This document shows, piece after piece, positions 1,666-53,425 of a stretch of 64,000 nucleotides of DNA (its first letter is position 1; each line of letters opens with the position of its first letter). Source of the stretch: a phage. Made by a program: the position numbers and the translations under genes. The notes under the pieces are model-generated. The model had not been told where the DNA came from, searched no databases, and was given only the letters and a program-made list of their open reading frames with translations. The stretch lies in the NCBI GenBank assembly GCA_025812035.1, contig GCA_025812035.1_4719.1, one strand, 5' to 3'.

Positions 1666-1727
1666 TTGGGATTCCTCTTTTCTTAAACTTTATTAAATGA
1701 CGTCATTGAATCAGCTTCTACTCGCTC

Positions 1728-1809
1728 ATTCACCTAGGTAATATAACCCTGAAATTTTTTTCAATATTGGTGTAACCGTATTGAACGATATAAACCCCTA
1801 GGTGAATGC
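1728..1809. repeat. 12-bp perfect inverted repeat ATTCACCTAGGT ... ACCTAGGTGAAT flanking promoter motif A
   Basis: Arms at 1728-1739 and 1798-1809, 58-bp spacer. Confidence 0.4.
1735..1770 (-). promoter_or_regulatory. early-promoter-like motif, copy A
   Basis: Plus strand TAGGTAATATAACCCTGAAATTTTTTTCAATATTGG; minus-sense TATATTACCTA preceded by A-tract; ~70 nt upstream of the 1665 start. Confidence 0.4.
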
Positions 1810-16385: not shown

Positions 16386-16416
16386 AGGAAGGTAATGTAG
16401 GTTTATTTTAATCTCC
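16386..16416 (-). promoter_or_regulatory. variant early-promoter-like motif, copy D
   Basis: AGGAAGGTAATGTAGGTTTATTTTAATCTCC in divergent intergenic region. Confidence 0.25.
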
Positions 16417-30694: not shown

Positions 30695-30730
30695 TTAGGT
30701 AATATAGACCTCAACTTTTTTCCAATAATG
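30695..30730 (-). promoter_or_regulatory. early-promoter-like motif, copy B
   Basis: TTAGGTAATATAGACCTCAACTTTTTTCCAATAATGC; lies between two minus genes, which fixes the functional strand as minus. Confidence 0.4.
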
Positions 30731-31638: not shown

Positions 31639-31789
31639 TCGTCCATCACGACGGAAGGACGTTATGTGACGCGGTGTCCATAACGGCCCTGGTAGCAGGC
31701 ATTAAAAAGATAACAAAAGGATGTAAGTTGAGCTAAACCACCTAAATACGGTAACGATTACTTCCGTACACAATATAACGTAACATCTT

Positions 31790-32599
31790 TTACCACTGAT
31801 TAAAGCTGCCCGCTTTAACGATGTCACAACGCAGATGGTTACATAACTGATCCAGGAAGACAACCGGACTGTCACCGGACAACATGGCCAGTGCGTGCTG
31901 ACCACCAGAACGAACAACGAGATCATCAACCATTGGCGCAGTAATCGGGAGATCGTACGCGTCCATGATTGCTTTGGCTTCCTGTTCTACGTCTTTCTGA
32001 AACCCTTCCATCGTCGGAGAGTCATATTTGGTTGCAAACTCGATCCCAGGCAAGTTAACGTAATCGTAAGTCATCACGCGGGTCATAACGCGACGGCGCT
32101 CACGTTGCCAGATTTGGGGATCGGTTAACGCACGAACTGAAAAACACACGTTCACTAGCGGTGTTTCAAAATCCTTACGTAACGCATCACCGTACGGACC
32201 ACAAGGAATAACGTCCCCCATCACCATCACGACAGGACGACCACGACGATCACGTCCAGCTTCTTCCAACCAAATCTTAGAAAAGCAATGACTCACTTTG
32301 GTTTCTTCGATTCGTAATGCGCGCTGTAAAAAGCTGGTGGCATCCTGACCGATCTCTGGTTTAGGGTGACCGTATTCACCTTTCAGCGAACGATTGCGTG
32401 CGTTTGTTTGCAGTAAGCTGTTTTCCAGGAACAACGGTTTCGAACGCTCAAGTTCGTAATATTCTTCGGTATTGTTAAAACAGTTAAACCCACCGATAAC
32501 ACAGGTGTAGGCACCGTCAGCGTTAGGACGGATAATACCTTTTTTATTCACACCAAGATAACTGGTGCAAACAAGATTACTAATTGGTGGTTGCATCAT
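31790..32599 (-). CDS. hypothetical protein
   Basis: 269 aa; CCTTCTTGACGTA element ~48 nt upstream. Confidence 0.5.
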   Translation of the reverse strand: MMQPPISNLVCTSYLGVNKKGIIRPNADGAYTCVIGGFNCFNNTEEYYELERSKPLFLENSLLQTNARNRSLKGEYGHPKPEIGQDATSFLQRALRIEETKVSHCFSKIWLEEAGRDRRGRPVVMVMGDVIPCGPYGDALRKDFETPLVNVCFSVRALTDPQIWQRERRRVMTRVMTYDYVNLPGIEFATKYDSPTMEGFQKDVEQEAKAIMDAYDLPITAPMVDDLVVRSGGQHALAMLSGDSPVVFLDQLCNHLRCDIVKAGSFNQW

Positions 32600-32676
32600 A
32601 ACCCCTTTATAAGCAACTGAATGAAAAACGTTACCTTCCCGCTTTTACGTCAAGAAGGCGACACGTAAGCGTTATA

Positions 32677-33408
32677 TCACCATTCATACGATCCGGCGCA
32701 CTGATGTCCCAACAGCACCAATGCGTCGTCTTTGGCGGCCAGGTATTTTTCCAACGTTATCCGTGAAACAGACACATTGGAGAAATCCATCACACCTAAG
32801 CGATGATCGTAATGGTTAATTTGCATCCGGTAATAACCTTTCTTTACCACCAAAAACTCACCCTGACGCAACCATAACGGAACGTTGTCCACCTCCGCAT
32901 GGATATAAAACACCGGACATTCTGTCGTAACGGAGTTTTCCTTCCCATCACTATCCGTGATCTTCCCTTTGGGAACAGCCGCGATAAAACATTCTCCGAT
33001 ACGTTCGGTTTGATACCCGTTCGGATAGCATGGATCGTGAAATAGCCAATGCTCATCGCTGATATCAACATCGGATAACAGCGTACGATGTGGGCGTAAG
33101 GCGATGTCGAACGGAACACGATAGATAACGTATCCGCCTAACCAATGCGCTAAGTGGCCACCGGAATAGTACTGCTTGATTGCGGTACTGTAACCGTATA
33201 CACAACCCATCAAACTACTGGATACACAGATCCTTGGAAACGATCCATCCTCCATACGCAAGGTACGTTGAGGAATGCGCGGCATCATCGTTTTCAGTTC
33301 GGTATCGGTGCTAATATGCAATAAACCGAAAGGAAGCGTTTTACTCGGGACCCACGCGCAACGTTCCATAATCGCTCTTGGGACAATAGTCTCGATAGAC
33401 GATAACAT
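32677..33408 (-). CDS. hypothetical protein
   Basis: 243-aa ORF. Confidence 0.5.
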   Translation of the reverse strand: MLSSIETIVPRAIMERCAWVPSKTLPFGLLHISTDTELKTMMPRIPQRTLRMEDGSFPRICVSSSLMGCVYGYSTAIKQYYSGGHLAHWLGGYVIYRVPFDIALRPHRTLLSDVDISDEHWLFHDPCYPNGYQTERIGECFIAAVPKGKITDSDGKENSVTTECPVFYIHAEVDNVPLWLRQGEFLVVKKGYYRMQINHYDHRLGVMDFSNVSVSRITLEKYLAAKDDALVLLGHQCAGSYEW

Positions 33409-33409
33409 A

Positions 33410-34120
33410 TCACCCCCTCAGAATCGCTTCTGTTTCGCTGATCGTGTCCGCGGGATAAACCAAACTACTATCGATTGCATTGTTCACGTAACCACCCATC
33501 AGGTTGGTGATGGTGTTTGTGCCGCTATCGATAATGTTTCGTAATCCGATGTCGATGGCTTTTAACGTGCTGCGTTCTTCATCTGAAAGCAGACGCCACG
33601 CCCGACGGCGATCGTTGGGGTCACGCGTGGTGATAGAAGCCAGAACAGAATAGATACTGCTATCCGCATTCAATTTAACACCGGCCAATTTCGCCGATGT
33701 GTAGAGCAGCTGATATTTTTCTTTTTCAGTATACCACCATGGCACTTTACCGAGTGTATAGATCTCGTTATACATCAGCCATGGGAAAGAGTTTCGCATC
33801 ACGACATCGGTCGACACCAACACCGTGTCACCAGGAAGAAATACGAACTCGTAAAACGGCTGACCATCCATGGTAATTTCACGGATGTCAGACGGGTCGA
33901 TATGGAGCTGGGTCAATGCGTGGCTGACACCATACTGACCATCAGGAAGAATAATCGGGCAGCACGCACAAACCCGGTTCTCACTCCCAATGATAGATAA
34001 ACCCAATCCCTCGTAACGGACGGGCGTCAGAATCGAACACCCGCCACGAGTAACAACAGATTTATCTTCTTGTATGTCCCAGTCCGCAAGCACCGCAGCA
34101 CCGTTGCGGACAAGCGCCAT
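33410..34120 (-). CDS. hypothetical protein
   Basis: 236-aa ORF. Confidence 0.5.
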   Translation of the reverse strand: MALVRNGAAVLADWDIQEDKSVVTRGGCSILTPVRYEGLGLSIIGSENRVCACCPIILPDGQYGVSHALTQLHIDPSDIREITMDGQPFYEFVFLPGDTVLVSTDVVMRNSFPWLMYNEIYTLGKVPWWYTEKEKYQLLYTSAKLAGVKLNADSSIYSVLASITTRDPNDRRRAWRLLSDEERSTLKAIDIGLRNIIDSGTNTITNLMGGYVNNAIDSSLVYPADTISETEAILRG

Positions 34121-35644
34121 TTACACCTCGCTAATCTGGATAACGTAAAGCTGCTGGGCCACGTAATCGGTGGTCAGATGCATTGTTGCGATGGTTGCTG
34201 CTTCGAATACCGTAAGTTCAGGACGTTCACGCATAATCAAATCGATTTCATCGATGAGACGGTTAACACCTTGAGCGTCTTCATGATGCATCGTTTTCAC
34301 GTAGAGCGTACGGAAATACTGCTGGAAATTAGCTACGTCGGTATCGGTAAGGTTAGCAACTTCACCACGCACAATTTCCATGACCTTCTTACGGGCATCT
34401 TCGTCGAGGTCGACCGTAATCAGATCAGCGAACACACCCTGCAATGCCAGCGCGTATGCACGTAAGCGGTTTGCGGCCTGCTGACTGGCTTTCATGTTGA
34501 TGTAGTTACGGTAATGCTGCATGAAGCCTGCACCGTTAGCCAGCAGTTCATCTTTACTGATGAGTTCACGCTCTAACAGAACGGCTGCGGTTAATGCTTC
34601 CGGTGAACCACCTTCTTGCAGATAACCCATGTAAACATCCGCGTTAACGAAAATCGTCATCGTTGACGCATCTTCAGCACGTTGAATCTGAGAAGCTGAC
34701 GGCGCAGAAAGAATCAGCTCGCCACGCTCCATACGCAAGATACGATCACGACCGACGCGCGCCATCCCGTTGATCGCCGCAGCGCGAGCTTGTTGCATTT
34801 TAGCGCGGTAGTTTTCAAGCATCATGTCGTTGCCGTCCTGGATATCTTCCAGCAGGTTAACGGCCCACATATAGCAGAGGAATGCAGGAGTTGCCGCAGC
34901 GCGCGAACCATGGAATGCAACGTTATCGCTATCTGGGTACGTAATCAGATAAGCGGTGATGTTCGAAGAAGGGGCGGAACCACGGAAGAAAAGGTTGTAA
35001 ATGTCTTCCAGTGCCTGATCGCTCATCCCTTCCGTTGCTTGCTGTACAAAACGATCCAGGTTTTCATTACCGGTATACAGCAACGTACGCAGCTTGTCAC
35101 CAGTGATAAATGCAAGCTTTTCGGTTGGGGTGAAATCGTTATTAATCGAAATCAAGCCATTGAGATCATAATCGCTAACTAATGCCTGATATTCTTCGGA
35201 GTTATAAAACTCAGGATAGTAACTCAGGCTTACCGTCGGGATCAGTTTCGGTGCCAGGATGATCGAATCGATACGTTTTTCCAGTTCCGGGTACAGCGCA
35301 CGGCATTTCGGCAGGATGGTATTACGCGCCAACTCTTTGGCATACACCACTTTTTCCACCACGTCTTGAACTGCGGTCTGTAAAACTTCATCGTGGATAT
35401 AAACCTCGCGTTCGCTGGCAGGTGCTACAGCGCCATCTTCGGTTTCATCAAGTGTTTCAGCAACAACCATACGTTCAGCACTGAGCTGCACCAACGCATC
35501 AGCGTCTTCTGGTGGTTGGTTCCAATGCATGGTTTCACAAACTGCGGCTAACGGAGTGCCTGGAATCGCAGCAACGATTTGATTACGTTTGATAAACCCT
35601 TCAACAATAGGCTCAACGGCATAAACAGTTTTATTGGTGATCAT
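34121..35644 (-). CDS. hypothetical protein
   Basis: 507-aa ORF; TAATG coupling with upstream gene. Confidence 0.55.
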   Translation of the reverse strand: MITNKTVYAVEPIVEGFIKRNQIVAAIPGTPLAAVCETMHWNQPPEDADALVQLSAERMVVAETLDETEDGAVAPASEREVYIHDEVLQTAVQDVVEKVVYAKELARNTILPKCRALYPELEKRIDSIILAPKLIPTVSLSYYPEFYNSEEYQALVSDYDLNGLISINNDFTPTEKLAFITGDKLRTLLYTGNENLDRFVQQATEGMSDQALEDIYNLFFRGSAPSSNITAYLITYPDSDNVAFHGSRAAATPAFLCYMWAVNLLEDIQDGNDMMLENYRAKMQQARAAAINGMARVGRDRILRMERGELILSAPSASQIQRAEDASTMTIFVNADVYMGYLQEGGSPEALTAAVLLERELISKDELLANGAGFMQHYRNYINMKASQQAANRLRAYALALQGVFADLITVDLDEDARKKVMEIVRGEVANLTDTDVANFQQYFRTLYVKTMHHEDAQGVNRLIDEIDLIMRERPELTVFEAATIATMHLTTDYVAQQLYVIQISEV

Positions 35645-35877
35645 TACTGCGCTCCCTCCAACGCATTACTACCTACGGGTTCTTTGGTTTCCAAACGGCT
35701 GTTTAAACGCGCAGCAACCGCATCTTCCAGCCCCAACGGCATAACCTTTTTGTTCACGTCAGGATCGGCAGCATCATTACCAACGGTTTGACGTACGACC
35801 TCAGCAACCAACGTTACCGCGTTCGTCAGCGCAACAAAGCTCGCTGCTCGAGCCGTGTTAAGTTGTTCTTGGTTCAT
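35644..35877 (-). CDS. small hypothetical protein
   Basis: 77 aa, AAAGGAAAAG RBS; palindromic element upstream. Confidence 0.4.
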   Translation of the reverse strand: MNQEQLNTARAASFVALTNAVTLVAEVVRQTVGNDAADPDVNKKVMPLGLEDAVAARLNSRLETKEPVGSNALEGAQ

Positions 35878-35908
35878 TCACTTTTCCTTTTAATGTCAGA
35901 GCATCGCA

Positions 35909-35928
35909 TTCTTGACATACGTCAAGAA
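35909..35928 (-). promoter_or_regulatory. palindrome TTCTTGAC-ATAC-GTCAAGAA
   Basis: 8-bp perfect arms; shares 13-mer TACGTCAAGAAGG with 32646-32658; both ~40-48 nt upstream of minus-gene starts. Confidence 0.3.
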
Positions 35929-35952
35929 GGTACTGCGTTCAGCGAAATAAAC

Positions 35953-35977
35953 GAGCAGGGGCATGAAGCCCCCTGCT
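35953..35977 (-). terminator. hairpin immediately after RNAP beta-like gene stop
   Basis: Stem AGCAGGGG/CCCCTGCT, then U-rich GTTTATTTCGCT in minus sense. Confidence 0.5.
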
Positions 35978-35978
35978 C

Positions 35979-38900
35979 TTATTTAGCGTCGTTAAAATAA
36001 ATATCAACAGCTCGTTCCGTTGCGTAGAGGAGACCAAGGTTCACAGTCCCAACCACTTCCGGCGAAGCGATGATACGGTTAGCGATACTGGTGCCACTGA
36101 AGATAGCATCAAGGGTGTGCCCGTCTTCGGTTTTGTTCACACCATGACCCACGGAAGAGACAACGGATTTCGCTTGTGCTGCGAAGGTACCCTTATCACC
36201 CATCCCCGCACCAAGGTCGTAACGCATGAAAATACGGATGGCGATCTGGTTCTCGCCTAACGGATTACCGTCTATTCTCACGTTACTGTTGTTGATACGC
36301 CCCGTCGTTGCTTCATTGAGTTTCAGTTCCTTGACGCGTTTAGCTCGCGCTTTATCCGCATCGCCGACGAGCGCCGCCATGGTTTCACTCATATCCTCAA
36401 TCTGAGCGCGGTACAGCACATCGATCTGTACAACTTCACCATGAACGTCAGCACGTGGGTTATACTGACTCATACGACGTAATGCTTCAACAGCTTCCTG
36501 ACTCTCATCACTCAGATCGGTTGCGATCGGTTCTTCCAGTGTTGCAAGAATCGTTCGAGGTTCAACATGATCGCCGATTTTTACGAGACCACGAATGTTG
36601 AGATGGGCGTCAACAATGAGCGTACGGCTCTTAATCGATGGTGTTACGAGACGATCGGCAAGATTGTCGAAGATATACGAACTGTCCTCGTGCGTCTCTG
36701 GAATATCCAGAATACCGACAAGAGACAGGACGCCTGCGCGCCAAACAACCTGACCTGGGTTCCACCAATCGCGTTTAAAATAAAGACGATGGAAAACCAC
36801 CACGTCCTGATCCTTAACGCGATCCCCAACTTTATAATCGGTAATGAGGTCGTGAGGATAATACTTACCTGGTCCTTTCCCGATTATCGTACCGAGTTGG
36901 AAAACCTCTTCTCCTAACTCTGGATCGTCGTATTGTACCGTAAGCGCAGTTTTGGTGACCTTCTTAACAACACCATCGCCTTGGGCAGCTGCGGCGAAGA
37001 GTTTACCGACACGATGCGCGATAACAGTCTCGCCACCCGTACGCCATGGTTGTACATCGTAACCTTCAGCAGCAATCATGCGGTTGTGTTGGATCCCGAC
37101 GAAGACCAGACGTTTTCCATCGTCACGGTCTACAGCCGGAACAGCTAACGCCGATGTACTCATTACCGATGAGATGCCGTCTGTCTTTTCATCGAATGGT
37201 CGTGTTTCACCATATACAGACACGATATTAGCATTAGGTGCCAGATAGGCAGAAATACCTACATCCCCGCTATCCTTCGTACCTTCTGATACAATACCGA
37301 CATCTGACTTATCGTATTCACGATCGCGTGCGCGGCGAAGCGATGTCTTTGAGCGACCCCCGATACCGGTCATCGTTGCTTCTTCACCCTGCTTGATATC
37401 CAGCATCGGGTTGGTTTCATCGATCACGATGGACGCGCTGTCGTCGAGAATTTGGTTCCAGACACTCACTGGACTGATTGAGATTTTCTGTCGGTTTCCT
37501 TGACTGCTGTTCTCGTTTTGACGAATAGCACCAACCAGGTCCTTATACACCAGCTCAGCGAACTTATCGTACGTTTTAAAACGTTGGTAGTTCACATCGT
37601 TCGTGTTAGGTGCCCAATCATCCAGAAGCAGTTCAACAGCACGCAGCAACAACATGGCGAAATCGGTAGGTTCTCCCATGTTCTGTAATAGCGTACGGCT
37701 TACCGGATCGACGAAAAGACGCTCCATGAGTTCAAGTTCGCGTAAATGGCGAACCTTAAGTCCAGCACCATCGACAACGTTAAAATAGATATCTCGATTG
37801 TCAAAAGCACCGCGAGCGTAACCGATGTAGTTACGGTATTCGTTAAACCCACCCATCAACAACGTCGTCATGCGATCGTCTTTACTGAAGATCAAACTTT
37901 CGTCGTCGAAGCTCACCGCGAACTCGTCTGATGCTAAACCCATACGAGAGCCACGAGGAACAGTACGATAATTCGCTTTAAGATGTTCTAATAACGGGGT
38001 AAGCCCACCCAGATAACTTAGAACAACGCCAACCGGAATACGTACGCCCATGAATTCAAGATCGGCAGCTTCGATTGGCATCTTAGCCGCATTGATGCCG
38101 AAGAAATCAGGGAACGTCCCTACAGGTGTTGGTGTTTGTCCTGACTGACAGATATAGAGCTGGTTGCGTTCATCGATCGCTAAGAATTCGCCCGACGTAT
38201 TACGCGCGAACGTCAGGAGTCCTTCGGCTAACTGTTCGTTGAACCGATCTTCCCCAATGAACTCCGGTAACGTTTTTATATCGAGACGTATATCCCAATC
38301 AGCGAATTGGATTTGGGTATAATTGCGCGCAAGCACGGCGAAGTAATACGGGACTTTGACAGCCGGATCAAAGACGTTACCACGTTTTAACGTTGTTAAG
38401 GGCGAGGACTTATCGTAATACATCGCCGTAAGTTGACGTGTTAGCCAACGACCAGCGTTATTAACGACGCGCTCTGAACGTTTAACGAACACCTTACCGT
38501 AGGCGGTACTCAACGCAACTTCGGATGACGATACCTTTCTAATAGGTTTATCAACGCGCTGTTTACGCATCCGGTACTTGATACCGTTAACAACATAAAT
38601 GCCATCCTTACGAACCTTCGGCAACATCACCGGGAACGTGGTTGGGACACCGCCTACAGGAGCCAGTTTAATCGTGATGACTTGATAATCCCCCATCACG
38701 TCAACAACATCTTCAACTTTATATCCCGTAACAGGGTAACCTGCTTGCTGTACCGCAACAACGGCAGCTGCGATGTCCTTTTGCATTACATGTTCAACGT
38801 AATGTTTATCCCACACCGCGAGCGTTGATTTACATAAGCTCTTATCAACGATAACATCCGCTTCCGGCATAACCTTTGCGGGAGCTAGTTTCGCGGCTTT

Positions 38901-40325
38901 TGGTTTAACTTCAACATATTCAGCGAGCGTTAATCCAGAACCGTCAGGTGCTTCGATTTCGTGGATGGCGTCAGCATTACGCATCGCTGCTTTATATTGG
39001 ACGCCACTTAACTGACCTGCATCCGCCAGATCGCTCGCACGCACCAACACCGCATCCGATAACGACTGAATATACTCACCATGTGTTTTTGGTAACGTTG
39101 CTGCGTCAAAGACATCAACCTTTTCTTCGGCGGTATCGTCGGGGACGACTTCGAAGAGATCGTCGGTAATGTCCTGATCTTCATCAGGTTGGAAATCCGG
39201 TTGTACTTCTACCCCAGGTACTTCACGAACATCTTCAAACGTGCGCTCTACGATTGCGTTCCACGCATCAGCATCATCGTCTTCATCCGACCCACCGACC
39301 AACTCCGCTTCTAACTCATCGGGGTCAAGAACAGTGGCCAGATCCTCACCGTTAGGAAGCACGACATCGCGATCATCGTACTCCGCATCCGGGCTGTCCG
39401 CAAGAATATCTCGCTCTTGACGAAGAACCTGTTCCTCTTCTTGTTTCTGTTCTTCTTCATTCGCGCTCTGCGACCACAGACGTGTTACCGCCATCATCCA
39501 ACGACGCTGGAAGGTTTCAAGTGTCGTTTTATCGAGTTCTTCCCCTTCCTTTACGAGCCCGGTACGCCATTCCTCCAGCAGACCGAGATTCAGCGTAAAG
39601 AAGTACACACCGTCTGTAAATACAACGTTAAGCTTATCCAGCGTGGCTCTGTCTAACGAAGCCATCGTGCTGTTCTCACGATCGGTTCCCAACCAGCGGA
39701 AGAAGTCAAAGAACGACAGCTCCTCCGGTGTGGCGAAATTCATGAGGTTGTTACGGGTCGGTGCCTGTTGCGTGGTACGCATCAACGAAATCTTCGGCAA
39801 TGTTGACGGTATACGGAACAACAAAAAGTGTTGACGATCGCTTTGCTGGGCGATTTCGTTGGCTTTCGACCAAATTGTTTTACGTACGTTGAACCACTCA
39901 TCGTACCAACGGGTGAGCGTTGGACGATAGATGTACATGTGGTTAAGATGCGCGTAGTTAGCAACGATCTGCGCGTTGATGTTTTTCTCCACCGTGCTTA
40001 GATCGGTAACCAAACGAAAACGACGATGTGATGCACGATAATCCAATTTCGCTCGTGGAAGTTGGAATCGTTGATCGCGTCGAGGTGCGCCCTGTTTGGT
40101 TGCGAGATCATCAGCAAACGAAATCCATAGTTGAGCATTTTCTTTACTCAGCATGTATTCGTTTTCTGGAGGACCTATCAATGATGGATCCGTTGCGGTG
40201 TAATGATAGACAGCATAACGCGGCAGCTGCAATAGCTGCACTAAACGTAATCTCGGTGACAATAGCTCTTGGTATCGTCTGACGCCAAACTGTCGGTAGT
40301 AATCAAGGTATTTAAGTTTTGCCAT
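35979..40325 (-). CDS. multisubunit RNA polymerase beta-like subunit
   Basis: 1448 aa; GIGGRSKTSLRRARDRE...VGIVSEGTKDSGDVGIS resembles RpoB GPGGLTRERAGFEVRD...ETPEGPNIGL; GDKGTF...EDGHTLD resembles RpoB GDKMAGRHGNKG region. Confidence 0.6.
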   Translation of the reverse strand: MAKLKYLDYYRQFGVRRYQELLSPRLRLVQLLQLPRYAVYHYTATDPSLIGPPENEYMLSKENAQLWISFADDLATKQGAPRRDQRFQLPRAKLDYRASHRRFRLVTDLSTVEKNINAQIVANYAHLNHMYIYRPTLTRWYDEWFNVRKTIWSKANEIAQQSDRQHFLLFRIPSTLPKISLMRTTQQAPTRNNLMNFATPEELSFFDFFRWLGTDRENSTMASLDRATLDKLNVVFTDGVYFFTLNLGLLEEWRTGLVKEGEELDKTTLETFQRRWMMAVTRLWSQSANEEEQKQEEEQVLRQERDILADSPDAEYDDRDVVLPNGEDLATVLDPDELEAELVGGSDEDDDADAWNAIVERTFEDVREVPGVEVQPDFQPDEDQDITDDLFEVVPDDTAEEKVDVFDAATLPKTHGEYIQSLSDAVLVRASDLADAGQLSGVQYKAAMRNADAIHEIEAPDGSGLTLAEYVEVKPKAAKLAPAKVMPEADVIVDKSLCKSTLAVWDKHYVEHVMQKDIAAAVVAVQQAGYPVTGYKVEDVVDVMGDYQVITIKLAPVGGVPTTFPVMLPKVRKDGIYVVNGIKYRMRKQRVDKPIRKVSSSEVALSTAYGKVFVKRSERVVNNAGRWLTRQLTAMYYDKSSPLTTLKRGNVFDPAVKVPYYFAVLARNYTQIQFADWDIRLDIKTLPEFIGEDRFNEQLAEGLLTFARNTSGEFLAIDERNQLYICQSGQTPTPVGTFPDFFGINAAKMPIEAADLEFMGVRIPVGVVLSYLGGLTPLLEHLKANYRTVPRGSRMGLASDEFAVSFDDESLIFSKDDRMTTLLMGGFNEYRNYIGYARGAFDNRDIYFNVVDGAGLKVRHLRELELMERLFVDPVSRTLLQNMGEPTDFAMLLLRAVELLLDDWAPNTNDVNYQRFKTYDKFAELVYKDLVGAIRQNENSSQGNRQKISISPVSVWNQILDDSASIVIDETNPMLDIKQGEEATMTGIGGRSKTSLRRARDREYDKSDVGIVSEGTKDSGDVGISAYLAPNANIVSVYGETRPFDEKTDGISSVMSTSALAVPAVDRDDGKRLVFVGIQHNRMIAAEGYDVQPWRTGGETVIAHRVGKLFAAAAQGDGVVKKVTKTALTVQYDDPELGEEVFQLGTIIGKGPGKYYPHDLITDYKVGDRVKDQDVVVFHRLYFKRDWWNPGQVVWRAGVLSLVGILDIPETHEDSSYIFDNLADRLVTPSIKSRTLIVDAHLNIRGLVKIGDHVEPRTILATLEEPIATDLSDESQEAVEALRRMSQYNPRADVHGEVVQIDVLYRAQIEDMSETMAALVGDADKARAKRVKELKLNEATTGRINNSNVRIDGNPLGENQIAIRIFMRYDLGAGMGDKGTFAAQAKSVVSSVGHGVNKTEDGHTLDAIFSGTSIANRIIASPEVVGTVNLGLLYATERAVDIYFNDAK

Positions 40326-40328
40326 GGG

Positions 40329-41975
40329 TTAGGCTCCACGAGGTCCCGTTAAGTTGCGTAATAGGAACGCAACCGTATCGTAACCAATATCGATGTTGAA
40401 TTTATTTTTACCACTTACCCAGAAAGCACGTTTCTTGTGCGAGTTGGTAATTTCGTCAATGGCTTCCATGGAATAAAGAACGTTAACCGAGACCGTATCG
40501 CCATCAAAGTCCCCACCAAGTCCGGCGAGGTACGGGGCTGGAACAATAGTCGTTTCTACGAACGAAGCATTAGGTAACCAATCTGGGTATTCCCATGCGA
40601 TAAATCGCTCATCCGTTATTGGTTCCCAGTTACTATCCAGTTCGGTTTTCGGTTTTGCTGCAACGGTCGTACGCGCATAACAGGTTAACGGAATGACGGA
40701 TTGCATACCCGATACCGGATAACGTGTTACCATCGCTGCCAGGTTATTCCAGTATTTATATCCAGCAATATAGATAAGCTCAGTATACGTAATGGGGTGA
40801 ACATCCGCCCCGGGTTTGTTAAGCATCTCTGGGGGTAATTCACTCATACCACGGAATAACCGAAACGAATCATTATTCACATAGACCAGGCAGAGATAAC
40901 GTCCATTGACCATGATAGGTTCGTTACGCACACCTGGATCGCTTAAGGTGTTCAGTAAACGTTCTATCCCATCCCATGTTGTAAAGTCATCGATGGTGTC
41001 TGGATCAAGCGTGACGCGTTCACGTTCCATCGTTTCGGTATCAATAAGTTCAACTTCTGTAACATCACGGACAAATATTTCCTGCAAAATCCCCGTACGT
41101 AACGCATGTTGCGTTACTGGGAGAGCAGCTTTACTCATCTGGTATAACCCTAACTGAACTGCAGTACAGGAAGGCTGGTTAGGCGACCCTAGTACCTCCG
41201 TTGTGGGGTTAATTGCTGAAATAACGTTACGGGTTGAGTTCCAAACACGACGTGAGCCGAACTTACCTTGGAAGATCCCTTTCTTACCTTGGAACATATC
41301 CAACAACAAAGCGTAGATGTCGTTAAATGTTCTCTGTAAGCTCCAGCGCTGACCGTCGTAAACGGGATCCGAATAATCTTTTAATCCATCCGGGACGGTG
41401 TTAGAAATTGCCAGGAAACGACGATACAACTCTGTGATTTCTTGCTCGCTTTCATACCCGCCTTCTTTTACTTCTATTTCACGTAAACCCGCAGGTAAAA
41501 CCAGTAGATGACGAGTCATCGCTTTGAACATGTTCTCTTCGACAACCTTGATTCGTAGCTCTCGTTGAGCTGAACCCGTTGAAACGAACTTGATATCAGC
41601 GACGTGTTGTGCAAAGAACCCGTATCCTGTTTGTCCTGTTAGCGCATCGGACGCAACGAAGTCACGTTGTTCAGGATCCCAACGCGCGTACGCCTTCCCC
41701 GACATGATATCACCGTAGAGGTGTTTTAGTCGAATGAGACGATCGTAGATGACAGGGTGTAGGATTTCAACTTTGCATTCAATCACCGCAAATCGACGGT
41801 CTCGATCTTCGCTACCCGCACTACCAAAGATGGTGTATGAATAGAAACCGTCATCGTGGAAATTACCGGTGCTTGGATCACGAATGCTCATGCTCGTGAT
41901 CTTGGGGAGAAAACGTAACTGCTGTTTATCGAGGTGTAAAATGCTAATATTAAACGGCTCTCTGACTTTAGCCAT
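40329..41975 (-). CDS. multisubunit RNA polymerase beta-prime-like N-terminal subunit
   Basis: Start trimmed to ATG 41975 (AAAGAGGAG RBS); RRFAVIECKVEILHPVIY resembles beta-prime RMGHIELAAPVAHIWF; GKFGSRRV...NVISAIN resembles [27 protein letters not shown] catalytic motif near C-terminus. Confidence 0.65.
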   Translation of the reverse strand: MAKVREPFNISILHLDKQQLRFLPKITSMSIRDPSTGNFHDDGFYSYTIFGSAGSEDRDRRFAVIECKVEILHPVIYDRLIRLKHLYGDIMSGKAYARWDPEQRDFVASDALTGQTGYGFFAQHVADIKFVSTGSAQRELRIKVVEENMFKAMTRHLLVLPAGLREIEVKEGGYESEQEITELYRRFLAISNTVPDGLKDYSDPVYDGQRWSLQRTFNDIYALLLDMFQGKKGIFQGKFGSRRVWNSTRNVISAINPTTEVLGSPNQPSCTAVQLGLYQMSKAALPVTQHALRTGILQEIFVRDVTEVELIDTETMERERVTLDPDTIDDFTTWDGIERLLNTLSDPGVRNEPIMVNGRYLCLVYVNNDSFRLFRGMSELPPEMLNKPGADVHPITYTELIYIAGYKYWNNLAAMVTRYPVSGMQSVIPLTCYARTTVAAKPKTELDSNWEPITDERFIAWEYPDWLPNASFVETTIVPAPYLAGLGGDFDGDTVSVNVLYSMEAIDEITNSHKKRAFWVSGKNKFNIDIGYDTVAFLLRNLTGPRGA

Positions 41976-53392: not shown

Positions 53393-53425
53393 AAGGTAAT
53401 ATAGTCCTGTTATTTTTTTCAATCC
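53393..53425 (-). promoter_or_regulatory. early-promoter-like motif, copy C
   Basis: AAGGTAATATAGTCCTGTTATTTTTTTCAATCC; overlapped by 9-bp inverted repeat CCTTCATGA/TCATGAAGG (53373-53396). Confidence 0.4.

What the first reader, a model, noticed from the sequence alone, without database searches (positions are those of the whole stretch)
32646..35930. Shared 13-mer TACGTCAAGAAGG upstream of two minus-strand genes, one copy inside a perfect palindrome
Minus-sense CCTTCTTGACGTA sits 48 nt upstream of gene 31790-32599 and 40 nt upstream of gene 35644-35877; in the latter it is part of TTCTTGAC-ATAC-GTCAAGAA (35909-35928). It contains a -35-like TTGACG but no matching -10, so it is more likely a phage-specific promoter or operator.
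Basis: seen in the sequence. Interest (0 to 1): 0.45.

Follow-up and report, generated by a model that had tools for sequence, protein, structure and literature searches.

The report
Paired stem-loop inserts flanking phage head genes
The repeated 13-mer is real, but it is best read as the front half of two small hairpins, most likely in RNA, that one lineage of the E. coli jumbo phage Goslar inserted on either side of a four-gene virion-protein block; it is not a promoter box, and it is a modest, local regulatory curiosity.

Summary
CCTTCTTGACGTA (gene sense, minus strand) lies at 32646-32658 and 35918-35930, and the second copy sits in the palindrome at 35909-35928. The window is a Goslar-like nucleus-forming jumbo phage (95% identity).

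A shared 13-mer alone is within chance, but three results make it real:
- The complete Goslar genome has only these two copies.
- Against a relative with 88.7% nucleotide identity, the only indels over 8 nt in 12.8 kb are the two segments (41 and 46 nt) that carry the 13-mer. Outgroups with 71-74% protease identity also lack both segments, so they are probably derived insertions.
- At both sites the 13-mer is the 5' arm plus loop start of a hairpin. The first site pairs through U-G wobbles. It is stable only as gene-sense RNA, and most natural variants keep it.

The sites match no sigma-70 promoter, no phiKZ-type early (TATATTAC) or late (TATG) promoter, no phiKZ-type terminator and no Rfam family.

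Best reading: two copies of an accessory RNA stem-loop bracketing the gp208-gp211 block, upstream of the prohead protease, acting after transcription (mRNA stabilisation or a protein-binding site). The function is inferred. A promoter or DNA operator is less likely but not excluded.

The parts
32646..32658 (-). 13-mer copy 1 (gene sense CCTTCTTGACGTA). It lies 19 nt after the stop of the gp211 homolog and 46 nt before the protease start codon.
   Evidence: Invariant in 8 Goslar-type genomes.
32633..32659 (-). Stem-loop 1 in gene-sense RNA: G-CCUUCUUG.C / GUAAAA / G.CGGGAAGG-U. Ten pairs, including 2-3 G-U wobbles.
   Evidence: Folds: (-10 to -13 kcal/mol in 5 of 6 variants, -5 in Goslar). Strand and DNA comparison. 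Pair counts.
32635..32680 (-). Segment of about 46 nt that carries copy 1. It is absent from relative L021 and from the outgroups. Boundaries are uncertain by a few nt.
35918..35930 (-). 13-mer copy 2, 40 nt before the start codon of the gp208 homolog.
35909..35928 (-). Stem-loop 2, the perfect palindrome: UUCUUGAC / GUAU / GUCAAGAA. The loop is GUAC in three sister genomes.
   Evidence: -9.2 kcal/mol; z = -3.0 for the 36-nt piece
35891..35931 (-). 41-nt segment that carries copy 2 (ACCTTCTTGACGTATGTCAAGAATGCGATGCTCTGACATTA). It is absent from L021 and from the outgroups.
35953..35978 (.). Bidirectional intrinsic terminator after the 1448-aa virion RNA polymerase subunit gene. On the gene strand its tail GTTTATTTCG fits the phiKZ-type terminator tail TTATKYYGT. 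Stem-loop 2 starts 22 nt downstream of it.
   Evidence: Goslar annotation; motif from PMC10914365
32677..35877 (-). Four-gene block bracketed by the two stem-loops: homologs of Goslar gp208 (77 aa), gp209 (507 aa), gp210 (236 aa) and gp211 (243 aa).
   Evidence: ORFs. Annotation. PHROGs. gp208 and gp209 are virion proteins at more than 200 copies per virion and gp210 is a virion RNA polymerase subunit (bioRxiv 10.64898/2026.04.21.720040).
31790..32599 (-). Prohead (head maturation) protease, Peptidase_S80. It is the gene downstream of stem-loop 1.
   Evidence: Pfam PF20034, E = 9e-79; PHROG 3014

Best explanation
The 13-mer is the 5' arm and first loop bases of a small stem-loop present in two copies. 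Each copy sits on a 41-46-nt segment that the Goslar lineage proper inserted into a formerly compact operon (virion RNA polymerase subunit, gp208, gp209, gp210, gp211, protease).

The element most likely works in the transcript, in gene sense. One copy is in the leader of gp208, just after a terminator. The other is 19 nt after the gp211 stop and 46 nt before the protease start. Together they bracket the gp208-gp211 message.

The most likely role is post-transcriptional. Either the hairpins shield the 5' and 3' ends of that segment from RNases, setting the output of abundant virion proteins apart from their neighbours, or they give a common RNA-binding factor a site on both messages.

Shown: the existence of the element, its copy number, its derived and dispensable status, its hairpin geometry, and the preference of the site 1 hairpin for the gene-sense strand and for RNA.

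Inferred: that it is transcribed as part of these mRNAs, and what it does there.
For: - Only two copies in the 237-kb Goslar genome, both intergenic and both in gene orientation.
- Both lie on the only indels over 8 nt in a 12.8-kb alignment with L021 at 88.7% identity.
- Outgroups with the same gene order have 3-nt and 23-24-nt junctions and no 13-mer. The segments are therefore probably gains.
- At both sites the 13-mer forms the 5' arm of a hairpin. Given the 13-mer, a random 3' flank does as well in 0.6-2% (site 2) or 0.1-0.8% (site 1) of trials.
- Site 1 pairs through U-G wobbles. It folds at -10 to -13 kcal/mol as gene-sense RNA, against -5 to -7 antisense and -1 to -5 as DNA.
- Natural variants keep the pairing: G-C to G-U, U-G to U-A, and A or G opposite U. 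A double change in L008/L009 re-registers the inner stem to ACG/CGU.
- 93.6% of cells are paired, against 44-52% when the structure is slid by 1-3 columns.
- The sites fit none of the genome's promoter or terminator classes.
Against: - No transcript data are available, so the transcription start sites are unknown.
- No pair shows a change on both sides, because the 5' arm never varies. The support from variation is one-sided only, and the shuffle control is uninformative.
- Goslar's own site 1 variant has a weakened hairpin (-5 kcal/mol).
- Site 2 is a perfect DNA palindrome and folds equally well on either strand.
- Sequence identity confined to one arm is not explained by a purely structural role. 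The excess conservation of the 13-mer over its flanks at site 1 is not significant: 0 of 13 against 8 of 39 polymorphic positions, P = 0.08.
- Hairpins of 8-10 pairs are weaker than the phage's terminators (-14 to -28 kcal/mol).
Confidence: 0.45

Rival explanations
1. Minor-class promoter for one of the phage's multisubunit RNA polymerases. The 13-mer would be the recognition element. It would have been inserted after a terminator to restart transcription of gp208-gp211, and again ahead of the protease.
For: - The conserved element is asymmetric and 13 nt long, in gene orientation, 40-46 nt before the start codons.
- Site 2 lies 22 nt after a strong terminator, where a restart would be useful.
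- Both copies were gained in one lineage.
- Middle and late promoters of phiKZ-like phages are poorly defined (PMC7598289).
- From my own knowledge, phage N4 gives a precedent for a few hairpin-shaped promoters.
Against: - Only two copies in 237 kb.
- No TATATTAC box. TATG occurs only at site 2, and there it is TACG in 3 of 8 genomes.
- L021 has the same terminator and the same essential genes without the element.
- The site 1 hairpin needs G-U pairs and is weak as DNA.
- The distance to the next conserved downstream feature varies among genomes.
Confidence: 0.12
2. DNA operator. A phage-encoded dimeric DNA-binding protein would bind the palindrome at site 2 and a half-site at site 1 to co-regulate the two units.
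For: - Perfect 8-4-8 palindrome at site 2. It is fully self-complementary (GTAC centre) in three genomes.
- The copies sit ahead of two neighbouring units of related function.
- Co-gain is consistent with a shared trans factor.
Against: - At site 1 the second half-site matches only through T-to-C differences (CCTTCCCGC against CCTTCTTGAC). Those would matter for DNA recognition but not for RNA pairing.
- The arm spacing differs between the two sites.
- Identity extends asymmetrically beyond the half-site (CC on one side, GTA on the other).
- TGACGT and TTGACG are not enriched in intergenic DNA.
Confidence: 0.12
3. Functionally neutral or selfish palindromic insertions. A short hairpin cassette was copied twice (local duplication, template switching or a miniature mobile element) and is merely tolerated in intergenic DNA.
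For: - The segments are dispensable: they are absent from L021 and from the outgroups.
- The two inserts are of similar size, 41 and 44-47 nt.
- Goslar intergenic DNA is rich in repeated hairpin families.
- The flanks of site 1 are highly polymorphic.
Against: - No further copies in the genome or in IMG/VR outside Goslar-type genomes.
- Outside the 13-mer the two inserts are not significantly similar.
- Variants at site 1 mostly preserve RNA pairing, which suggests constraint.
- Both copies are retained in all 8 Goslar-type genomes.
Confidence: 0.2
4. Weak transcription attenuators or pause hairpins for the phage polymerases, derived from the phiKZ-type terminator hairpin.
For: - The arms of site 1, CCUUCUU and GGGAAGG, resemble the pyrimidine and purine arms of the phiKZ-type terminator consensus CCYCCCC...GGGRRGG.
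- A run of 5-7 U follows site 1, 5-6 nt after the stem.
Against: - Neither site is called by the terminator scan.
- Neither has the TTATKYYGT tail that marks the terminators in this genome.
- Site 2 sits just downstream of a canonical terminator, where a second one would be redundant.
Confidence: 0.08

Closest known systems
Intercistronic and 5'-leader stabilising stem-loops (for example REP hairpins in E. coli operons, the ompA 5' hairpin). From my own knowledge.
   Same: - Short imperfect palindromes in untranslated parts of polycistronic messages.
- Dispensable and lineage-specific.
- Placed at the 5' and 3' borders of a segment whose products are needed in different amounts from its neighbours.
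   Different: - Only two copies.
- One arm is identical between copies while the other arm differs.
- No evidence for RNase protection here.
- The messages are made by phage polymerases inside a phage nucleus.
Lambda nutL/nutR boxB, and phage translational operators (MS2/R17 coat-protein hairpin, T4 RegA sites). From my own knowledge.
   Same: Two small sequence-related RNA hairpins in the leaders of two phage transcription units, which could serve as sites for one trans-acting protein.
   Different: - No N-like or coat-like partner has been identified.
- The loops differ (GUAU or GUAC against GUAAAA or UAAA).
- Site 2 lies after a terminator, not before one.
- The ribosome-binding sites are not sequestered.
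phiKZ-type terminator motif BCCYCCCCHWWDGGGRRGGBYTTATKYYGT (Putzeys et al. 2024, PMC10914365) and the late-promoter core T-3ATG+1 (Yakunina et al. 2015, PMC4666361)
   Same: - Hairpins with a pyrimidine-rich 5' arm and a purine-rich 3' arm in intergenic DNA of a chimallivirus.
- Site 2 carries TATG in five of eight genomes.
   Different: - No TTAT(G) tail after either hairpin.
- The stems are much weaker.
- The TATG is not conserved.
- Goslar holds 53 detections of the canonical hairpin+TATG unit (detections may overlap), and these two sites are not among them.
Sigma-70 -35 hexamer TTGACA
   Same: TTGACG matches 5 of 6 positions.
   Different: - No -10 at 16-18 nt.
- From my own knowledge, host polymerase is not used by this phage family and is excluded from the phage nucleus. 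phiKZ infection is rifampicin-resistant (PMC4666361).
Phage N4 virion-polymerase hairpin promoters. From my own knowledge.
   Same: A very small number of hairpin-forming sites with conserved stem and loop sequence in a phage that packages its own polymerase.
   Different: - N4 uses a single-subunit polymerase and DNA hairpins of 5-7 bp with 3-nt loops ahead of early genes.
- Here the genes are late and structural, and one hairpin needs G-U pairs.
- The phage's early promoters are the TATATTAC boxes.

Membership tests
Sigma-70 promoter | -35 hexamer close to TTGACA | tested here: met
   TTGACG at both sites
Sigma-70 promoter | -10 hexamer close to TATAAT, 16-18 nt downstream | tested here: not met
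   The consensus scan finds nothing at either site. The hexamers at a 17-nt spacing are CGTTTT and GCTCTG (read).
phiKZ-type early (virion polymerase) promoter | AT-rich box TATATTAC about 10 nt upstream of the start site | tested here: not met
   Such boxes exist elsewhere in the window (1738, 16392, 30699, 53396), but not at 32600-32690 or 35880-35950.
phiKZ-type late (non-virion polymerase) promoter | TATG with G at +1. All four bases are required in phiKZ (PMC4666361). | tested here: not met
   Site 1 has none next to the motif. At site 2 it is TATG in 5 genomes and TACG in 3.
phiKZ-type intrinsic terminator | GC-rich hairpin followed directly by TTATKYYGT | tested here: not met
   The tails are UGCGAUGC (site 2) and UAACGUUUUU (site 1). 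The canonical units are listed, and there is no terminator call at either site.
Dimeric-repressor DNA operator | Two-fold symmetric half-sites at fixed spacing at every site | tested here: inconclusive
   Site 2 is a perfect 8-4-8 palindrome. Site 1 is symmetric only if G-T pairs are allowed, and its spacing differs.
Conserved RNA stem-loop element | Pairing maintained across copies and variants | tested here: met
   93.6% of cells are paired, against 44-52% for slid structures. Four pairs change on one side and stay paired. Hairpins are predicted in all 8 variants.
Conserved RNA stem-loop element | Compensatory changes on both sides of a pair | tested here: not met
   No pair has a change on both sides, because the 5' arm is invariant. 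The only paired change is the re-registering double substitution in L008/L009.
Conserved RNA stem-loop element | Transcribed in the modelled sense | not testable with these tools
   No Goslar transcriptome was found in the library.
Rfam families | Match at the gathering score | tested here: not met
   No hit in the whole window at the gathering score. Only two chance-level hits elsewhere at E up to 10.
Miniature mobile palindromic element (REP- or MITE-like) | Many copies, similarity along the full length, target-site duplications | tested here: not met
   Two copies only. The flanks are not significantly similar. The TAACGC direct repeat at the edges of site 1 and the TA at the edges of site 2 are suggestive but ambiguous.

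The most novel reading that the evidence does not exclude
The two stem-loops are sequence-specific RNA operators, recognised through CCUUCUUGAC/GUA. They were recently acquired by Goslar-type phages. Through them a phage RNA-binding factor, or the mRNA-handling machinery of the phage nucleus, would co-regulate, route or stabilise the messages for abundant capsid-internal proteins and the prohead protease. This would be a lineage-specific post-transcriptional regulon in a nucleus-forming phage, spread as a 41-46-nt cassette.
Probability: 0.15. Interest if true: 0.6.

Novelty: new member of a known kind. Interest (0 to 1): 0.3.

Why it matters
Gene regulation in nucleus-forming jumbo phages is poorly understood beyond the early promoters. 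Any cis element that separates the expression of neighbouring late genes is a handle on how these phages set virion stoichiometry.

Nature has already supplied the control here. A close relative and the outgroups lack both elements while keeping the same genes. A comparison of mRNA ends, mRNA half-lives and protein yields between these phages would therefore test the function directly.

The scope is small, though: two copies in one narrow lineage, and the element is dispensable.

Tried and rejected
- **Sigma-70, sigma-32 and sigma-E readings.** There is no -10 partner (and reading).
- **General phage promoter.** The whole-genome search finds no other copy with up to 1 mismatch. Substrings such as CTTGACG or TTGACGTA give only scattered hits.
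- **A wider TGACGT family, including the AATGACGTCATT palindromes.** There is no intergenic enrichment.
- **The shared CATT 22 nt downstream.** Its spacing varies from 22 to 25 nt among genomes.
- **Homology of the two inserts beyond the 13-mer.** Not significant.
- **Membership of the hairpin+TATG class.** The tails are AATG and GATG, not TATG.
- **Stronger conservation of the 13-mer than of its flanks at site 1.** 0 of 13 against 8 of 39 polymorphic positions, P = 0.08, not significant.
- **IMG/VR scan for the element.** Only Goslar-type genomes carry it. About 40 other hits are coding sequence, because TAC GTC AAG AAG reads as Tyr-Val-Lys-Lys.
- **Distant relatives (about 40% protease identity).** Their intergenic DNA cannot be aligned. 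One (L013) has TTGACGTAA after a terminator upstream of its protease, and Goslar gp173 has TTGACGTAAAG after a terminator. Neither forms the hairpin, and I treat both as probable coincidence.
- **Rfam.** No match.
- **Search for a Goslar transcriptome in the literature.** None found.
Full report
**What the window is.** The region 31700-36100 is 95.0% identical to Escherichia phage vB_EcoM_Goslar (NC_048170), a nucleus-forming jumbo phage of the Chimalliviridae. All genes concerned are on the minus strand.
- A 1448-aa virion RNA polymerase subunit (Goslar gp207, window 35979-40325).
- A terminator.
- Homologs of gp208 (77 aa), gp209 (507 aa), gp210 (236 aa) and gp211 (243 aa).
- The prohead protease gp212 (Peptidase_S80, E = 9e-79).

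In Goslar, gp208 and gp209 are virion proteins present at more than 200 copies per virion, and gp210 is a virion polymerase subunit (bioRxiv 10.64898/2026.04.21.720040).

**The observation.** It is correct.
- The 13-mer is at 32646-32658 and 35918-35930.
- The palindrome is at 35909-35928.
- There are 46 and 40 nt between the motif and the start codons.
- There is no sigma-70-type -10.

**Chance.** On its own, a shared 13-mer means little.
- 19 of 100 shuffles of the window give at least three matches with up to 2 mismatches.
- Shuffled Goslar intergenic DNA (16.6 kb) yields on average 4.3 shared 13-mers.
- The CATT that both sites share 22 nt downstream in this window lies 24-25 nt away in some sister genomes, so it is incidental.

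I assembled the complete Goslar genome from five annotated pieces, with all 247 CDS verified. The 13-mer occurs exactly twice, at the two orthologous sites, and there is no copy with one mismatch. It is therefore not a general promoter motif.

The recognisable signals in this genome are different.
- Boxes such as TTTCACGGCTATATTACYT match the phiKZ early-promoter core TATATTAC.
- Strong hairpins are followed by TTATGCYGT (53 detections; TATG follows them 53 times, against 2-3 for any other NATG).
- That second unit is the phiKZ terminator motif BCCYCCCCHWWDGGGRRGGBYTTATKYYGT (PMC10914365). It contains the late-promoter core T-3ATG+1 (PMC4666361).

Neither 13-mer site belongs to either class. 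TGACGT-type words are not enriched in intergenic DNA.

**Comparative evidence.** Seven further Goslar-type genomes carry both copies with the 13-mer unchanged: L007-L009 from IMG/VR and L018-L020 and L022 from metagenomes. The centre of the site 2 palindrome is GTAT in five genomes and GTAC in three, so its TATG is not conserved.

A more distant relative lacks both copies. This is L021 (contig JACXXQ010000003.1), 88.7% identical over 12.8 kb. In a global alignment, the only indels longer than 8 nt are a 41-nt segment at site 2 and a 46-nt segment at site 1, each carrying the 13-mer.

I then found outgroups through a protein search: proteases 74% and 71% identical, on Logan contigs L086-L092.
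- The P0002 contigs (L086-L090) have the same gene order from the polymerase subunit to the protease.
- In them the polymerase gene and the 77-aa gene are 3 nt apart.
- The 243-aa gene and the protease are 23 nt apart (24 nt on the short contig L092).
- They have no 13-mer.

By parsimony, the two segments are insertions gained in the Goslar lineage proper, into what was a compact operon. L021 represents an intermediate stage that already has the terminator. The two copies are therefore linked by history or function, they are not chance, and the element is dispensable for expressing these essential genes.

**What the element looks like.** Folding shows that the 13-mer plays the same part at both sites: it is the 5' arm plus the first loop bases of a hairpin in gene-sense RNA.
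- Site 2: UUCUUGAC-GUAU-GUCAAGAA.
- Site 1: (R)CCUUCUUG.C-GUAAAA-G.CGGGAAGG(U).

Given the 13-mer, a random 16-nt 3' flank gives a hairpin as good as site 2 in 0.6-2% of trials. It gives one as good as most site 1 variants in 0.1-0.8% of trials.

Site 1 relies on U-G wobbles.
- As gene-sense RNA it folds at -10 to -13 kcal/mol (-5 in Goslar itself).
- As antisense RNA it folds at -5 to -7.
- As DNA it folds at -1 to -5.

The natural variants mostly keep the pairing.
- G-C becomes G-U.
- U-G becomes U-A.
- A or G lies opposite U.
- A double substitution in L008/L009 creates an inner ACG/CGU stem.

Across the eight distinct sequences, 93.6% of cells are paired, against 44-52% for slid structures. 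However, no pair changes on both sides, because the 5' arm never varies, and the shuffle control is uninformative. The evidence from variation is therefore supportive, not conclusive.

Outside the 13-mer the two inserts are not significantly similar. The excess conservation of the 13-mer over its flanks at site 1 is not significant (P = 0.08).

**Mechanism.** The geometry favours an RNA-level element.
- The site 1 hairpin is specific to one strand and depends on wobble pairs.
- Both copies are in gene orientation.
- Both are in untranslated stretches.

One copy sits 22 nt after a canonical terminator, in the gp208 leader. The other sits 19 nt after the gp211 stop. Together they bracket the gp208-gp211 segment.

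My preferred reading is a pair of end-protecting or factor-binding stem-loops. They would set the level of this segment, which encodes abundant virion proteins, apart from the polymerase subunit upstream and the protease downstream. This step is inference: no transcript ends are known.

A promoter remains possible, since a restart after the terminator would make sense. Against it are the two-copy count, the lack of any known core, the non-conserved TATG and the dispensability in L021. A DNA operator fits site 2 but not site 1. Neutral hairpin insertions cannot be excluded.

**Comparison with known systems.** The element works most like leader or intercistronic stabilising hairpins, or like small phage RNA operators such as boxB and translational operators.

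It fails the tests for a sigma-70 promoter, a phiKZ early promoter, a phiKZ late promoter and a phiKZ-type terminator. It has no Rfam match. An IMG/VR scan found it only in Goslar-type genomes; the other hits are coding sequence reading Tyr-Val-Lys-Lys.

**Verdict.** This is a real but small and lineage-restricted cis element. The promoter reading is not supported. The 'operator' idea survives only in an RNA form. Interest is modest.

Noticed in passing
window 5301, 9350, 15257, 17862/17895, 30030, 31604, 51087/51125, 52234, 63952/63988 (position of the T of TATG; strands): Strong GC-rich hairpins are followed within 0-6 nt by TATGCYGT, often on both sides of the same hairpin. Goslar has 53 detections of such units (possibly overlapping), and TATG follows them about 20 times more often than any other NATG. 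This is the phiKZ terminator motif of Putzeys et al. 2024 (PMC10914365). It contains the late-promoter core TATG, so terminator and restart signals may be fused.
   Followed up: partly
window 1738-1745, 16392-16399, 30699-30706, 53396-53403 (all minus strand): TA(T/C)ATTACC boxes match the phiKZ early-promoter core. They sit ahead of the nuclear shell protein gene, among others, and ahead of the gp214 homolog, an abundant virion protein. About eleven such boxes occur in Goslar.
   Followed up: partly
window 1696-1707: The perfect palindrome AATGACGTCATT lies between the early-type box and the nuclear shell protein gene. The same 12-mer recurs in Goslar in the divergent region between gp159 and gp160.
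   Followed up: no
window 35877-35906 (minus strand): The AUG in the 3' arm of stem-loop 2 opens an 11-codon ORF (MRCSDIKRKSE). Its stop overlaps the gp208 start as AUGA. It has no obvious ribosome-binding site, and it exists only where the 41-nt insert is present (read).
   Followed up: no
L086-L090, 3720-3790 and 6940-7030: Logan contigs of a phage with 74% protease identity keep the same gene order. They lack the terminator after the polymerase subunit gene (stop and start are 3 nt apart). The terminator and the two stem-loops were therefore added stepwise in the Goslar branch.
   Followed up: partly
L013 5905-5925; Goslar 157516-157530 (outside the window): TTGACGTAA directly follows a terminator hairpin upstream of the protease in a distant relative (41% identity). 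TTGACGTAAAG follows a terminator upstream of Goslar gp173. Neither forms the hairpin seen here, so this is possibly coincidence.
   Followed up: partly
window 40570-41010 (approximate, from Goslar 211817-212245): The Goslar record annotates a group I intron with an HNH-type gene inside the virion polymerase gene cluster. Rfam at the gathering score reports nothing anywhere in the window.
   Followed up: no
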